Of a stretch of 64,000 nt of DNA, positions 32,768-35,391 are shown one piece after another. Below the pieces are notes generated by a model. It saw only the letters and a program-made list of their open reading frames with translations, was not told the DNA's origin and searched no databases. The position numbers were made by a program, and so were the translations under genes. Position 1 is the first letter of the stretch. Each line of letters begins with the position of its first letter. Source of the DNA: Candidatus Omnitrophota bacterium. Its GTDB lineage: Bacteria > Omnitrophota > Gorgyraeia > Zapsychrales > Aceulaceae. The stretch is from contig JAQUUP010000009.1 in assembly GCA_028693815.1 (NCBI GenBank), forward strand, positions 1,779 to 65,778, written 5' to 3'.

Positions 32768-33319
32768 CTAATCTCCTTGGATCCCTCGCTTTTCTTTTCT
32801 TGCTTCAAGATAGGCTTCTCTTAGCTCAGTTTCGTATTTTGTATTTGGAGGAGTGATGCTAAGATCAGCGAATCCTTGACGTAAGATTTCAGCGTTAACC
32901 AGCGTTCCATCTGCAAGAAAAATATATCCTAGAAGATGACCTTGCTTGTCTCGATATTCTCTATCGAACTCTATTTTGACTTGCTTTCCTTTTAAGAGAT
33001 CATTTGCATACTCATAAGCTTTTTCTTCAGTTTCAATAGTAGGGTTTTCTTTTTCTTCAATAAGAATATTAAATTCATTATAGTTTAGCTTTTTTCGTTT
33101 AGGTGGATCGACTGGTTTTAAACCTATAAGTTTGATACGTCTTTTATCGGTTAAAAGAATTAATCCTGGGTTTGTGATTTCTTCGACGGTTGCTTTTTTA
33201 TTTTCTGAGGAAAGGCTTAAGAACAAAGAGTTTGATTTCTTTTCGGCATTCGCAGCTTGTGTTGCGGAGCATATGAAAAGGAATAAAAATAATAATTTAA
33301 TAAATCTTATTCGTATCAT
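32768..33319 (-). CDS. Secreted thermonuclease (SNase-like) family protein.
   Basis: Signal peptide, then GYIFLADGTLVNAEILRQGFADL, which is SNase-like. Confidence 0.65.
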   Translation of the reverse strand: MIRIRFIKLLFLFLFICSATQAANAEKKSNSLFLSLSSENKKATVEEITNPGLILLTDKRRIKLIGLKPVDPPKRKKLNYNEFNILIEEKENPTIETEEKAYEYANDLLKGKQVKIEFDREYRDKQGHLLGYIFLADGTLVNAEILRQGFADLSITPPNTKYETELREAYLEARKEKRGIQGD

Positions 33320-33873
33320 TTTGATAAAAAGACTTTAACTTCATCAAATTCTTTTTTGGCTTTTTTTGTATTTTCTTTGGATTTTTCGTATTTTTTTTCT
33401 TTTTGCGTAATTTCTTTTTTTAATTTTTCTTCTTTGTTTTGAAGTTTATCTTTAAATTTCGTTATTTCAAAATCAAAGTTTTTCTTGCTTTCATTGAGCT
33501 TATTTTCAGCGTTCTCAAGGTTTTTCTTGCAGAAATCTACTTTTTTTTGTGCTCTTTTAATTCTTTGTTCTAATTTTTCAGTTTCTTTAGAAATTTCATC
33601 TTTTCTTGAAAGATTAAAATCGGCTAGTTGATTTTTAGATTGCACTAATTCTTTATTCGCATTTTTTTCTTTTTCTTTTATTTCATCGTATTTTTCAATA
33701 GCACGATCCAAGTCTTTTCGACTTTCTTTAGAAAGATTTTGCTTTTTTAAGCGCCAGATTTCAAGCTCTTCAGAGCTAGCGAGTGTTTTGTCCGAATTGT
33801 TTTTGGCAAGGACAGTTGTGGACAAAGGACTAGTGACAAAATAAATTAGTAATAAAAATATATAAATATGCAT
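33316..33873 (-). CDS. Secreted Lys/Glu-rich coiled-coil protein (possibly a Skp/OmpH-like chaperone).
   Basis: Signal peptide followed by a highly charged heptad-like sequence. Assignment to the Skp family is tentative. Confidence 0.4.
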   Translation of the reverse strand: MHIYIFLLLIYFVTSPLSTTVLAKNNSDKTLASSEELEIWRLKKQNLSKESRKDLDRAIEKYDEIKEKEKNANKELVQSKNQLADFNLSRKDEISKETEKLEQRIKRAQKKVDFCKKNLENAENKLNESKKNFDFEITKFKDKLQNKEEKLKKEITQKEKKYEKSKENTKKAKKEFDEVKVFLSK

Positions 33874-33959: not shown

Positions 33960-34036
33960 TGGTGGCGGCGACTGGATTTAAACCAGTGACAAATCGGGTA
34001 TGAGCCGAGTGCTCTATCAGGCTGAGCTACGCCGCC
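33960..34036 (-). tRNA. tRNA with a CAU anticodon (elongator Met or Ile2/lysidine type); non-canonical D- and T-loops.
   Basis: Hand-folded: GGCGGCG acceptor with G1:C72, so not an initiator. Anticodon loop CUCAUAC. The D-loop AGCCTGATA lacks G18 and the T-loop TTTAAAT lacks C56. Confidence 0.65.
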
Positions 34037-34097: not shown

Positions 34098-34400
34098 TTA
34101 TGAATTGCGAAAAATGATATATAAAAAGAAAAAGACAACACCAATTGAAATTAGATAAAAATCATTAAAATAAAAAAAGTCTTGGATGCGTTCTGTTGGG
34201 GTGTATTCATAGTGAGTATTTTCAGCAATAATTGATCCTGCATTCTTTATGGCAAGCACGTCACTTTTCTTAAAGCGAATAAATTGCCCAGCGATTCGAT
34301 AGACTTTAAGTTTTTCCTCATCGGAAAGTTCCATAATCTTTTTTTCAGAAACCCCTAGTAGCTGCCCTGCTTCTCTAACAGAAATAAATTGATCAGACAT
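34098..34400 (-). CDS. Small protein with an N-terminal excisionase/MerR-type HTH (HTH_17-like) and a C-terminal TM helix.
   Basis: ISVREAGQLLGVSEKKIMELSDEEKLKVYRIAGQFIRFKKSDV fits the HTH_17 pattern. The C-terminus YLISIGVVFFFLYIIF is hydrophobic. Confidence 0.6.
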   Translation of the reverse strand: MSDQFISVREAGQLLGVSEKKIMELSDEEKLKVYRIAGQFIRFKKSDVLAIKNAGSIIAENTHYEYTPTERIQDFFYFNDFYLISIGVVFFFLYIIFRNS

Positions 34401-34402
34401 TT

Positions 34403-34921
34403 TTACCCTTTAGCTTTTTCGAGTGTAATCCATCGATCTACTTTTGCTCGTTCAAATCTCCAATTTTCTCCGTCACGGATGGCTGGAATGTTACCAGCAT
34501 TTGCCATTTCAACAACAGATTGAATATCAATATCGAGATAGTTAGAGACTTCATCAATCGTTAAGCTTTCGCTAAGCATTTGGCATTTTCCTTGAAAAAT
34601 GGCACCTTCAACAATGTTTAATTTTGGTGTTGAGATGTTGCCTTCTAGTTCTGAGCCGGGCATAAGAACAAGCATCGTTTTGGCAGTGACGTCTCCCTTG
34701 ACTTTTCCAGCAACAATAATACTTTCTCCTGTGATACGTGCATCAACATTGGCATTTTCTCCAATGGTCAATGTTCCTTTTGTTTGAAGCGTTCCCTGAA
34801 AGTTTCCATTAATTCTTAAATTGACAGGATCTGTAAAAGAAAGCGTTCCTTGCATTTCTGCGTTTATTTCAATAGCTTTTTGTTCATCATCTTTTTTGTT
34901 TCGTTTATCCCGAATAGCCAT
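34403..34921 (-). CDS. Bactofilin (DUF583/CcmA-like beta-helical) domain fused to a C-terminal excisionase-type HTH (HTH_17-like).
   Basis: The N-terminal ~115 aa have bactofilin-like repeats (GTLQTKGTLTIGENANVDARITGESIIVAGKVKGDV...). The C-terminus LTIDEVSNYLDIDIQSVVEMANAGNIPAIRDGENWRFERAKVDRWI matches the HTH_17 consensus (EVAxxLxVSxxTVxxLxxxGxIPAxRxGxxWRFxxxxVDxWL). Confidence 0.65.
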   Translation of the reverse strand: MAIRDKRNKKDDEQKAIEINAEMQGTLSFTDPVNLRINGNFQGTLQTKGTLTIGENANVDARITGESIIVAGKVKGDVTAKTMLVLMPGSELEGNISTPKLNIVEGAIFQGKCQMLSESLTIDEVSNYLDIDIQSVVEMANAGNIPAIRDGENWRFERAKVDRWITLEKAKG

Positions 34922-34935
34922 TTTTTCCTCCGATT

Positions 34936-35391
34936 TTAGGGCCGAAATATTTTTTCAATCTTTTTTTCAATAGAACGAAGTCCAATCAATGTTAAAAAAA
35001 CAACAAATGTTACTATAACGGCAGCTCCGTATTGTCCTGCGGCAACCGCCATGCCAATTCCGGAAACCACCCACATACTAGCTGCGGTTGTCAGCCCGGT
35101 GATTTCAGTGCCACCGCGAATAATTGTTCCAGCGCATAAAAATCCAACGCCAGTTACGATTCCAGCAATAATTCGCGTTGGGTCAACGATATTTGCTTCC
35201 TTATATATATCAAAAAGATGAAATGAAGTCAATACGAGGAGTGCTGATCCAACGCCAATTAAAATGTGTGTTCTTAAGCCGGCCCCTTTGTGGCGAATGA
35301 ATCGCTCAATGCCGATGATGCTAGATAATAGAATGGTTAAAAGAATTTTAAATAATACGTTACCTGCTTGAGAAAGAATTTGTTCAATCAC
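34936..35391 (-). CDS. mgtC: MgtC/SapB family membrane protein.
   Basis: GIERFIRHKGAGLRTHILIGVGSAL is the MgtC N-terminal domain signature. Confidence 0.75.
   Translation of the reverse strand: MIEQILSQAGNVLFKILLTILLSSIIGIERFIRHKGAGLRTHILIGVGSALLVLTSFHLFDIYKEANIVDPTRIIAGIVTGVGFLCAGTIIRGGTEITGLTTAASMWVVSGIGMAVAAGQYGAAVIVTFVVFLTLIGLRSIEKKIEKIFRP

What the first reader, a model, noticed from the sequence alone, without database searches (positions are those of the whole stretch)
34098..35391. Bactofilin fused to a DNA-binding HTH, in a tight cassette with an HTH-plus-TM protein and MgtC
The 172-aa protein at 34403-34921 combines a bactofilin beta-helical polymerisation domain with a C-terminal excisionase/MerR-like HTH (…GNIPAIRDGENWRFERAKVDRWI). 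Two nucleotides downstream, a 100-aa protein carries the same HTH type at its N-terminus and a single C-terminal TM helix. MgtC lies 14 nt upstream. I am not aware of a characterised bactofilin-HTH architecture. One hypothesis is that the pair physically couples DNA to a membrane-proximal cytoskeletal polymer, acting as a chromosome/plasmid anchoring or nucleoid-positioning module. This would be conceptually related to the bactofilin-ParABS positioning known in Myxococcus, but here in a single polypeptide.
Basis: partly seen in the sequence, partly recalled or inferred. Interest (0 to 1): 0.7.

Follow-up and report, generated by a model that had tools for sequence, protein, structure and literature searches.

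The report
Omnitrophota bactofilin–HTH and membrane-anchored HTH pair
The window really does encode a cytoskeletal bactofilin fused to a winged-helix domain, followed by a small membrane-anchored winged-helix protein; this uncharacterised gene pair is conserved across the phylum Omnitrophota, and the bactofilin-borne helix-turn-helix looks more like a protein-docking module than a DNA binder.

Summary
On the minus strand lie MgtC (34936-35391), a 172-aa bactofilin + HTH_17 fusion (34403-34921) and a 100-aa HTH_17 protein with a C-terminal TM helix (34098-34400), spaced by 14 nt and 2 nt.

The window comes from an Omnitrophota genome. The fusion and its partner form a conserved two-gene module, adjacent in 141 of 141 related loci. 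They sit in a fixed housekeeping neighbourhood: gatB, S41 protease, (YibQ-like), tsaD, (MgtC), fusion, partner … tilS, ftsH. MgtC is optional (106 of 137 loci).

The bactofilin part keeps the polymerisation-interface Phe and an MTS-like N-terminus. Its HTH is consistently acidic (net about -4, never positive). The partner's HTH is basic (about +2 to +3), and a stand-alone HTH_17 from the same phylum is +7.

I therefore favour a membrane-associated bactofilin scaffold whose acidic winged helix docks onto the tail-anchored partner. Any DNA contact would come from the partner.

The architecture is common within the phylum and annotated only generically. I found no paper on it. I file it as a new variant of a known kind, of moderate interest.

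The parts
34403..34921 (-). BacHTH: 172-aa bactofilin fused to a C-terminal HTH_17 winged helix
   Evidence: ORF. Pfam PF04519 and PF12728 are both above their gathering scores. The AF2 model has pLDDT 79. More than 1000 homologues have the same architecture.
34898..34921 (-). N-terminal basic/hydrophobic peptide (MAIRDKRN), MTS-like
   Evidence: A hydrophobic residue at position 2 or 3 plus at least two K/R in positions 4-8 occurs in 124/145 orthologues. The global bactofilin MTS consensus is MFSKKKK (PMC12448750). Membrane binding is inferred, not shown.
34580..34873 (-). Bactofilin beta-helix domain (residues 17-114), including the invariant F109
   Evidence: Pfam. The profile aligns to TtBac 6RIA/6RIB and BacA 2N3D, and F109 falls on BacA F130. 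Foldseek hits 6rib and 2n3d. F109 is invariant in A1.
34427..34564 (-). Acidic HTH_17 winged-helix domain of BacHTH (residues 120-165)
   Evidence: Pfam and NCBIfam. Foldseek matches BldC 6ama (30% identity, rmsd 1.4 Å), Xis 4j2n, RdfS 8dgl, RacA 5i44 and CbpM 3ucs. Net charge is -4.5 ± 1.25.
34098..34400 (-). Tail-anchored partner: 100-aa HTH_17 + linker + C-terminal TM
   Evidence: ORF. Pfam. The homologue family is 97-103 aa and found only in Omnitrophota. AF2 model. Adjacent to BacHTH in 141/141 loci.
34242..34385 (-). Basic HTH_17 domain of the partner (residues 6-53)
   Evidence: Pfam. Net charge +2.5, pI 9.45. The profile hits Pukovnik Xis 4j2n at E 0.0013.
34155..34193 (-). Nearly invariant juxtamembrane motif ERIQDFFYFNDFY (residues 70-82)
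   Evidence: Conservation. The motif is retained in the remote group. AF2 predicts a helix at 68-78. Its function is unknown.
34104..34169 (-). C-terminal transmembrane helix (about residues 78-99), with 1-4 residues after it
   Evidence: Kyte-Doolittle 19-residue maximum is 1.66-2.96 in 78 orthologues, with a tail of 0-6 aa. AF2 predicts a helix at 80-99.
34936..35391 (-). MgtC-family membrane protein (membrane domain only); a frequent but optional upstream neighbour
   Evidence: Pfam PF02308, E 1.4e-35. Directly upstream of BacHTH in 106/137 loci.

Best explanation
This is a two-protein, membrane-associated bactofilin scaffold that is a core housekeeping feature of Omnitrophota.

Shown:
- The fusion has a canonical bactofilin beta-helix with the conserved C-terminal interface Phe, a basic/hydrophobic N-terminal peptide, and a C-terminal winged HTH of the excisionase/MerR/BldC type.
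- The next gene encodes a tail-anchored protein with a paralogous winged HTH facing the cytoplasm.
- The two genes are always adjacent and often translationally coupled.

Inferred:
- These modules act as protein-docking domains rather than DNA readers. They engage the basic winged helix, or the conserved DFFYFNDFY juxtamembrane segment, of the tail-anchored partner.
- The result is a firmly membrane-fixed lattice that organises an envelope- or nucleoid-proximal process.
- If the module touches DNA at all, it does so through the basic partner HTH. The bactofilin could then either bridge or compete with that contact, in a BacR-like switch.

MgtC is a frequent co-transcribed neighbour, not a component.
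For: Domains and fold.

Polymerisation interface: F109 is invariant and aligns with BacA F130 / TtBac F105. F130R abolishes BacA polymerisation (PMC12448750).

MTS-like N-terminus in 124/145 orthologues, against the consensus MFSKKKK.

Obligate pairing: the partner lies next to the fusion in 141/141 loci. Gaps range from -4 to about 120 nt, with 12/78 overlaps. The pairing is kept even in the group with ≤50% identity.

Housekeeping synteny across the phylum. No terminator-like site on the coding (minus) strand lies at any tsaD–MgtC–fusion–partner gene junction; the only minus-strand match falls inside the MgtC ORF.

Charge of the HTH domains:
- Fusion HTH: -4.5 ± 1.25 (n=80) and -4.1 (n=160), never positive.
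- Partner HTH: +2.5, pI 9.45.
- The fusion HTH is more acidic than the partner HTH in 96.5% of 143 pairs.
- Stand-alone HTH_17 from the same phylum: +7.
- Pukovnik Xis aligned segment: +4 by my count of the segment printed.
- The Arg/Lys positions around the recognition helix are Glu/Asp in the fusion.

Precedents for HTH folds used as protein adaptors on cytoskeletal or chaperone partners:
- CbpM is among the fold hits.
- BacR binds the bactofilins BacE/F near its HTH and is recruited to the membrane (PMC13649987).
- RodZ (and my own knowledge of the MreB-RodZ structure).
- A membrane anchor supplied in trans by a membrane-protein client works for BacA (PMC12448750).
Against: No direct test of a fusion–partner contact was possible.

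The net charges of the two HTHs show no compensatory covariation: Spearman +0.06, n=143.

In the remote group the partner HTH is only weakly basic (+1.0 to +1.3, range -5 to +6).

An overall acidic domain can still carry a local DNA-binding patch. The wing keeps R158 and a K/R before the wing.

The fusion may not need an anchor if its N-terminus is a functional MTS.

The cellular process served is unknown.
Confidence: 0.45

Rival explanations
1. DNA-anchoring module. Both winged helices bind DNA, so a membrane-proximal bactofilin polymer and a tail-anchored HTH tether the chromosome or nucleoid to the membrane. This would be a one-polypeptide analogue of RacA-DivIVA or BacNOP-PadC-ParB.
For: Both HTHs are bona fide HTH_17 / excisionase-type domains above their cutoffs.

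Their closest solved folds are DNA binders: BldC, Xis, RdfS, MerR-family proteins and the chromosome anchor RacA (PMC4914108).

The partner HTH is basic with invariant R9, K20, K21, R42 and K44.

A tail anchor places it at the membrane.

A divergent paralogous Bac-HTH subfamily sits in a cluster with a ParA/MinD/MipZ-type ATPase.
Against: The polymer-borne HTH is acidic in every orthologue. It has Glu/Asp where a basic HTH_17 from the same phylum has Arg/Lys around the recognition helix.

No ParB/PadC-like gene lies in the conserved neighbourhood.

No candidate binding-site repeats were sought or found.
Confidence: 0.22
2. BacR-like regulatory switch. The tail-anchored basic HTH is a membrane-tethered DNA-binding regulator. 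The acidic HTH on the bactofilin acts as a decoy or DNA mimic that sequesters it, so the polymer state controls access of the partner to DNA.
For: In B. subtilis the HTH protein BacR is co-transcribed with bactofilins, binds them near its HTH, loses DNA binding when bound, and is held at the membrane by them (PMC13649987).

The two HTHs here carry opposite charge.

The coupled translation suggests 1:1 stoichiometry.
Against: A permanently tail-anchored regulator in a tightly packed housekeeping gene string has no obvious operator, and none was examined.

Neither protein hits DUF4004 in Pfam.

There is no charge covariation.

Conservation across the phylum at a fixed locus fits a structural role better than a regulatory one.
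Confidence: 0.15
3. Three-gene MgtC functional cassette. The bactofilin pair organises or regulates MgtC (Mg2+ / ATP-synthase-related homeostasis) in the membrane.
For: MgtC lies 14 nt upstream, with no terminator-like site at the junction. It is directly upstream in 106/137 loci.
Against: MgtC is absent from 31/137 loci, where tsaD directly precedes the fusion, and the pair is unchanged there. The pairing with the partner is 141/141, much tighter than with MgtC.
Confidence: 0.05
4. Mobile-element excisionase or anti-phage (MADS1-like) genes that happen to carry a bactofilin domain.
For: There are weak sub-threshold matches of both HTHs to MADS1: NCBIfam 41.6 and 19.8 bits against a cutoff of 80, and PADLOC mad1 at 25.9 bits. 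JGI names the proteins 'excisionase family DNA binding protein'.
Against: The matches cover only the generic HTH_17 fold and are far below the cutoff.

The locus is syntenic with core genes (gatB, tsaD, tilS, ftsH) across the phylum, with no integrase or other defence genes.

A tRNA-Met gene is adjacent, but the flanks are conserved on both sides.
Confidence: 0.02

Closest known systems
Canonical bactofilins (C. crescentus BacA, T. thermophilus TtBac; PDB 2N3D, 6RIB)
   Same: They share the PF04519 beta-helix. The C-terminal interface Phe is conserved (F109 = BacA F130). A short basic/hydrophobic N-terminal peptide resembles the MTS.
   Different: Canonical bactofilins have disordered, often Pro-rich tails and no folded accessory domain (Deng et al. 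preprint). Here a folded winged HTH follows the beta-helix after a linker of 5-30 aa. The N-terminal motif is M-A-[LF]-[RK]-x-[RK]-[RK] rather than MFSKKKK.
BacR (YhbD, DUF4004) with BacE/BacF of Bacillus subtilis (PMC13649987)
   Same: An HTH protein is genetically coupled to bactofilins. It physically binds them near the HTH and sits at the membrane because of them. DNA binding and bactofilin binding are mutually exclusive.
   Different: BacR is a separate soluble DUF4004 protein. Here one HTH is fused to the bactofilin and a second is tail-anchored. There is no DUF4004 match. The lineages are unrelated (Bacillota against Omnitrophota).
RodZ–MreB
   Same: A membrane-anchored protein uses its cytoplasmic HTH fold to bind a cytoskeletal polymer rather than DNA, as far as is known (the MreB-RodZ co-crystal structure is from my own knowledge).
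   Different: RodZ has an XRE-type HTH at the N-terminus, a mid-protein TM and a periplasmic domain, and it partners with actin-like MreB. The protein here has an HTH_17 fold, is tail-anchored with no periplasmic part, and partners genetically with a bactofilin.
RacA–DivIVA chromosome anchor of B. subtilis (PMC4914108; PDB 5I44)
   Same: A MerR-like winged HTH is joined to a self-associating scaffold that is fixed at the membrane. RacA is among the fold matches of the fusion's HTH.
   Different: RacA's oligomerising part is a coiled coil that binds DivIVA, and its HTH binds GC-rich DNA. Here the scaffold is a bactofilin and the HTH is acidic.
BacNOP–PadC–ParABS of Myxococcus xanthus (PMC5703909)
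   Same: A bactofilin scaffold is linked to chromosome organisation through a DNA-binding adaptor.
   Different: In M. xanthus the adaptor is a separate ParB-like protein that binds the long disordered C-tail of BacP and recruits ParA. No ParB/PadC/ParA gene lies in the conserved neighbourhood here. Only a divergent paralogous Bac-HTH subfamily lies next to a ParA-type ATPase.
BldC / excisionase (Xis, RdfS) / MerR N-terminal winged HTH; CbpM
   Same: The fold is the same (rmsd 1.4-2 Å, up to 30% identity to BldC). Like BldC and Xis, the domain stands alone without an effector domain.
   Different: BldC, Xis and RdfS are basic DNA binders. The fusion's HTH has net charge about -4. CbpM shows that this fold can serve as a protein binder (of the CbpA J-domain).

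Membership tests
Bactofilin (PF04519) | Sequence match to the bactofilin domain above Pfam's gathering score | tested here: met
   86.2 bits against a cutoff of 27.9; residues 17-114 cover profile positions 3-98 of 98.
Bactofilin (PF04519) | Right-handed beta-helix fold like TtBac/BacA | tested here: met
   The AF2 model has beta-strands at 16-110 with pLDDT about 90. The Foldseek top hits are 6rib_A (E 5.8e-5, TMt 0.77) and 2n3d.
Bactofilin (PF04519) | Conserved Phe in the C-terminal polymerisation interface (BacA F130 / TtBac F105) | tested here: met
   F109 is invariant in A1 and aligns with the F of BacA 'GAFFQGRS' and TtBac 'GAVFVGQS'. Its role is described in PMC12448750.
Bactofilin (PF04519) | N-terminal membrane-targeting sequence (consensus MFSKKKK) | tested here: inconclusive
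   The motif is M-A-[LF]-[RK]-x-[RK]-[RK]. A hydrophobic residue at position 2 or 3 plus at least two K/R occurs in 124/145 orthologues, but a hydrophobic residue at position 2 in only 24/145.
Bactofilin (PF04519) | Nucleotide-independent polymer formation | not testable with these tools
   This needs purified protein (EM, sedimentation).
HTH_17 / excisionase-type winged helix (PF12728, TIGR01764) | Sequence match above the curated cutoffs | tested here: met
   Fusion: 38.6 bits (PF12728, cutoff 27) and 41.3 bits (TIGR01764, cutoff 28.8). Partner: 31.7 and 32.2 bits.
HTH_17 / excisionase-type winged helix (PF12728, TIGR01764) | Helix-helix-hairpin-helix winged fold like BldC/Xis/MerR N-domain | tested here: met
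   Secondary structure is H122-129, H133-142, E148-150, E153-157, H158-171. Foldseek matches BldC, Xis, RdfS and MerR-family proteins at rmsd 1.4-3 Å. The partner has H8-15, H19-27, E33-36, E40-44, H45-54.
HTH_17 / excisionase-type winged helix (PF12728, TIGR01764) | Basic DNA-contact surface (recognition helix and wing) | tested here: not met
   This applies to the fusion's HTH. Its net charge is -4.5 ± 1.25 and never positive. It has Glu/Asp at three columns around the recognition helix where the +7 stand-alone HTH_17 from the same phylum has Arg or Lys. The partner HTH (+2.5, with invariant R9, K20, K21, R42, K44) is inconclusive.
HTH_17 / excisionase-type winged helix (PF12728, TIGR01764) | Excisionase role: association with an integrase or mobile element | tested here: not met
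   The conserved flanks are core genes (gatB, S41 protease, tsaD, tilS, ftsH), and no recombinase appears in ±6 kb of 160 loci.
BacR (DUF4004)–bactofilin regulatory pair | DUF4004 domain in the HTH protein | tested here: not met
   No DUF4004 hit for either protein at E ≤ 0.1.
BacR (DUF4004)–bactofilin regulatory pair | HTH protein co-transcribed with, and binding to, bactofilin | tested here: inconclusive
   Co-transcription is likely: gaps of -4 to about 120 nt, and no terminator-like site on the coding strand at the gene junctions.
RodZ | XRE-type HTH, central TM, periplasmic domain, MreB partner | tested here: not met
   The HTH is HTH_17, not XRE. The TM is at the extreme C-terminus with 0-6 residues after it. 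The adjacent polymer gene is a bactofilin.
Bactofilin–PadC–ParABS positioning system | ParB-like adaptor (PadC) and ParA encoded with or recruited by the bactofilin | tested here: not met
   No ParB- or ParA-like gene lies in the conserved neighbourhood of the window's module. A ParA/MipZ-type ATPase is found only next to a divergent paralogue.
MgtC family | PF02308 membrane domain | tested here: met
   122.7 bits against a cutoff of 31.4. The protein has only the membrane domain (151 aa). It is below the NCBIfam equivalog cutoffs.

The most novel reading that the evidence does not exclude
Omnitrophota build a cytoskeletal lattice of a kind not yet described. A bactofilin polymer carries a folded winged-helix module on every subunit. 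That module pairs with a tail-anchored winged-helix protein to couple membrane, polymer and possibly nucleoid. On this reading the HTH fold has been repurposed as an acidic/basic heterotypic docking pair, and the module is an essential organiser of these ultra-small cells. A paralogous branch would be wired to a ParA-type positioning ATPase.
Probability: 0.25. Interest if true: 0.7.

Novelty: new variant of a known kind. Interest (0 to 1): 0.5.

Why it matters
Bactofilins are widespread scaffolds. How they connect to clients and membranes is known from only a few model organisms, and the tails flanking the beta-helix are normally disordered.

Here a folded domain is fused to the polymerising core, with an obligate membrane-anchored partner of the same fold. 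The pair is conserved across an uncultivated phylum of mostly tiny, host-dependent bacteria.

If the acidic and basic winged helices do dock, this would be a new and genetically compact way to anchor a bactofilin. It would also be a further example of an HTH fold recruited for protein-protein contacts.

If instead they bind DNA, it would be the first cytoskeletal polymer with a built-in DNA-binding domain. Either result can be tested with two small recombinant proteins.

Tried and rejected
- Structure prediction of a fused fusion–linker–partner construct, using a paired alignment from 23 loci.
- Foldseek against afdb50, for an architecture census with organism names. The library was unavailable.
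- Charge covariation between the two HTH domains across 143 pairs. There is no compensatory signal: Spearman +0.06 overall and +0.42 in the remote group, which is probably compositional.
- phmmer of the isolated fusion HTH against PDB sequences gave only chance hits. The relationship is visible only by profile or fold.
- A metagenome scan with a 17-sequence remote alignment failed because no stretch was conserved enough. It was repeated with 5 sequences.
- Literature searches for Omnitrophota/Omnitrophica + bactofilin, and for bactofilin + HTH_17 / excisionase / domain architecture, found nothing on this architecture.
- The defence-system (MADS1) and excisionase readings were rejected on score and synteny.
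- MgtC as an integral component was rejected on occurrence.
- Taxonomic names for the remote representatives could not be obtained by cluster look-up. Their Omnitrophota origin is inferred from the identical synteny and from one named member.
Full report
**Observation**

The three ORFs are on the minus strand at the stated coordinates: MgtC 34936-35391 (151 aa), the fusion 34403-34921 (172 aa) and the small protein 34098-34400 (100 aa). The intergenic gaps are 14 nt and 2 nt.

Pfam gives the following:
- Fusion: Bactofilin PF04519 over residues 17-114 (E 1.9e-24, 86 bits, cutoff 27.9).
- Fusion: HTH_17 PF12728 over residues 120-165 (E 1.3e-9, 38.6 bits, cutoff 27).
- Small protein: HTH_17 over residues 6-53 (31.7 bits).
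- Upstream gene: MgtC PF02308 (E 1.4e-35).

NCBIfam's excisionase-type domain TIGR01764 is above its cutoff for both HTHs. A tRNA-Met gene (33960-34036) follows the small protein.

**Structure**

An AlphaFold2 model of the fusion (14-sequence alignment, pLDDT 79) shows a beta-helix at 16-110 and a helix-helix-hairpin-helix winged HTH at 122-171.

Foldseek against the PDB matches the beta-helix to Thermus TtBac (6rib) and Caulobacter BacA (2n3d). It matches the HTH to BldC (30% identity, rmsd 1.4 Å), phage and ICE excisionases (4j2n, 8dgl, 8c3t), MerR-family N-domains, the chromosome anchor RacA (5i44) and the protein-binding MerR-like CbpM (3ucs).

A profile of the family aligns to TtBac and BacA so that the invariant F109 falls on BacA F130. 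F130 is the C-terminal interface residue whose F130R change abolishes polymerisation (PMC12448750).

The partner model shows a winged HTH at 5-54, a low-confidence linker, a helix at 68-78 and a TM helix at 80-99.

**Where it comes from, and how common it is**

The fusion is 100% identical to a protein named 'polymer-forming cytoskeletal protein [Candidatus Omnitrophica bacterium]'. More than 1000 clusters at 90% identity share the PF12728+PF04519 architecture at 167-190 aa.

A scan of one genome per GTDB species found 263 loci. The best 80 are Omnitrophota MAGs. Some carry placeholder labels, and the closest is Candidatus Aceula lacicola at 88% (taxonomy).

An exhaustive HMM search of 1.84 billion 50%-identity representatives found 19,853 bactofilin-like proteins but only 31 at E ≤ 1e-30. 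Going by the lengths and match ranges in the top-150 list, roughly 20 representatives look like full-length two-domain proteins; Pfam checks on six of them (P0147, P0154, P0183, P0200, P0408, P0412) all found both domains.

The most divergent subgroup also contains a named Omnitrophica member. The architecture is therefore common inside one phylum and not detectably present outside it. It is annotated only generically, and no paper in the searched library deals with it.

**Gene context**

tblastn of the window's neighbours against the 80 genome loci shows a fixed order (neighbour identities confirmed by Pfam): gatB, S41/PDZ protease, (divergent polysaccharide deacetylase), tsaD, (MgtC), fusion, partner, …, SNase-like, tilS, ftsH.

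A second set of 80 metagenome loci was seeded with members at ≤50% identity, which have 10-30 aa inter-domain linkers. It shows the same order.

The partner lies immediately downstream of the fusion in 141 of 141 loci with enough sequence. The one apparent exception, L110, has it overlapping the fusion's stop codon.

Gaps between the two genes range from -4 to about 120 nt, and 12 of 78 show ATGA-type overlaps. MgtC is directly upstream in only 106 of 137 loci; otherwise tsaD precedes the fusion.

No terminator-like site on the coding strand separates tsaD, MgtC, the fusion and the partner at their junctions. The only minus-strand match lies inside the MgtC ORF. A promoter-like site follows the partner, ahead of the tRNA. 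The functional unit is the two-gene pair, and MgtC is a frequent passenger.

**The partner**

It is 94-132 aa long (97-103 in the main group). It has an N-terminal HTH_17 and a variable linker.

A nearly invariant aromatic/acidic juxtamembrane motif follows ([ED][RK][IV]xDFFYFNDFY). A hydrophobic helix lies at the extreme C-terminus, with 0-6 residues after it. It is thus a tail-anchored protein whose HTH faces the cytoplasm. Its family is also restricted to Omnitrophota.

**Is the bactofilin-borne HTH a DNA binder?**

| HTH domain | Net charge | Source |
|---|---|---|
| Fusion, 80 orthologues | -4.5 ± 1.25 (pI about 4.5, range -7 to -1) | |
| Fusion, 160 domains including the remote group | -4.1 (maximum 0) | |
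| Partner | +2.5 (pI 9.45) | |
| Stand-alone HTH_17 encoded a few kb away in some of the same loci | +7 | |
| Aligned segment of Pukovnik Xis | +4 (my count of the printed segment) | |

A column-wise comparison was made. The fusion has conserved Glu/Asp at the turn before the recognition helix, at its first residue and inside it. At those columns the stand-alone protein has Arg, Arg and Lys. The fusion's HTH is more acidic than its partner's in 96.5% of 143 pairs.

This pattern argues against canonical DNA binding by the fusion. It is compatible with a protein-docking role, for which the fold has precedents:
- CbpM, among the fold hits.
- BacR, which binds bactofilins near its HTH and loses DNA binding (PMC13649987).
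- The RodZ HTH with MreB (plus my own knowledge of the co-crystal structure).

The inference is not proof. The wing keeps an invariant Arg, and I found no compensatory covariation of charge between the two domains.

**Membrane association**

The fusion's N-terminus follows M-A-[LF]-[RK]-x-[RK]-[RK]. In 124 of 145 orthologues it has a hydrophobic residue at position 2 or 3 and at least two K/R in positions 4-8.

This resembles, but does not equal, the global bactofilin membrane-targeting consensus MFSKKKK (PMC12448750). That paper also shows that MTS affinity is weak and cooperative, and that a membrane anchor can be supplied in trans by a membrane-protein client. A tail-anchored partner would do exactly this.

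**Most likely mechanism**

Shown:
- Bactofilin core with the interface Phe retained.
- MTS-like N-terminus.
- Acidic winged HTH on a short or flexible linker.
- Obligate, often translationally coupled tail-anchored partner with a basic paralogous HTH and a conserved juxtamembrane motif.
- Housekeeping synteny across the phylum.

Inferred:
- The fusion polymerises at the inner membrane.
- Its HTH array docks onto the partner, via the HTH or the juxtamembrane motif, producing a firmly anchored scaffold.
- Any contact with DNA is made by the partner's HTH, and the bactofilin either bridges or competes with it.

I put this at about 0.45. An MgtC-centred cassette is at about 0.05, and a mobile-element or defence origin at about 0.02. 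The MADS1 matches are sub-threshold and generic.

**Comparison with known systems**

The fusion is a member of the bactofilin family by sequence, fold and interface residue. Both proteins are members of the HTH_17 fold family. The fusion's HTH fails the 'basic DNA-contact surface' feature, and neither protein has an excisionase context.

The module is not a member of the BacR/DUF4004, RodZ, PadC-ParABS or RacA-DivIVA systems. It may nevertheless work like the first two (an HTH fold as adaptor to a polymer at the membrane) or like the last two (a scaffold-linked DNA tether).

**Side observation**

A very divergent Bac-HTH subfamily (P0183/P0408) lacks the adjacent partner. In three contigs it ends a cluster containing a ParA/MinD/MipZ-type ATPase with a C-terminal CBM48/AMPK1_CBM domain and three unannotated proteins. 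This hints that the architecture has been used more than once in positioning systems.

**Verdict**

The feature is real, conserved and uncharacterised. It is a new variant of a known kind: a bactofilin scaffold with a fused winged helix and a dedicated tail-anchored winged-helix partner.

Including MgtC is not justified, and the DNA-binding role of the fusion is doubtful. Interest is moderate (0.5): a bactofilin specialist would want to test it, and the experiments are simple. The function is inferred only from sequence features and context.

Noticed in passing
L163:150-5168 (MHHD01000054.1, Omnitrophica WOR_2 RIFCSPLOWO2_12_FULL_51_8); also L164, L165: A divergent paralogous Bac+HTH_17 protein (L163:3754-4317; N-terminus MKFFLKRKK, very acidic HTH) has no tail-anchored partner. 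It closes a cluster made of a 242-aa unknown, a 465-aa ParA/MinD/MipZ-type ATPase with C-terminal CBM48/AMPK1_CBM (L163:866-2263), and two unknowns of 273 and 217 aa. An MscS-like membrane protein follows. This may be a cargo-positioning (glycogen granule?) system.
   Followed up: partly
L161:179-754 and L162:167-742: Another member of the same divergent subfamily (P0412) is followed by a HisKA kinase, a sigma-54 response regulator and a single-domain receiver. The upstream side is cut by the contig end.
   Followed up: no
L097:8637-8888, L108:9615-9830, L146:5813-6010 (approximate ORF spans): Small stand-alone HTH_17 proteins (66-84 aa, net charge +7) lie about 4 kb downstream of the pair in several remote-group loci. 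Their sequence is closer to the fusion's HTH than to the partner's. I used them as a control from the same phylum for a DNA-binding-type domain.
   Followed up: partly
window 34155-34193 (partner residues 70-82): The juxtamembrane motif ERIxDFFYFNDFY is the most conserved part of the partner across about 140 orthologues, including those with very different linkers. Its role is unexplained: a docking site, an interfacial helix, or ion binding next to MgtC.
   Followed up: partly
window 34580-34585 region (fusion residues 111-115, GxCQM): An invariant Cys (C113) sits at the end of the beta-helix, just after the interface Phe. Canonical BacA and TtBac have Ser/Arg there. Its significance is unknown.
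   Followed up: no
window 1-64000: 43 of 45 ORFs of ≥200 aa, and all six tRNA genes, are on the minus strand. This is an unusually strong strand bias over 64 kb.
   Followed up: no
window 32768-33873: Two secreted or lipoprotein-like proteins lie downstream of the tRNA-Met. One is a 185-aa Lys/Glu-rich coiled-coil protein with no Pfam family. The other is a 183-aa SNase-like (PF00565) protein. The SNase-like gene is conserved in the synteny; the coiled-coil gene is conserved only in close relatives.
   Followed up: partly
L075 (JBLINE010000024.1, labelled Lysobacterales): This contig carries the full Omnitrophota-type synteny (gatB, S41, tsaD, MgtC, fusion, partner, SNase) but is binned as Lysobacterales. 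It is probably a mis-binned contig.
   Followed up: no
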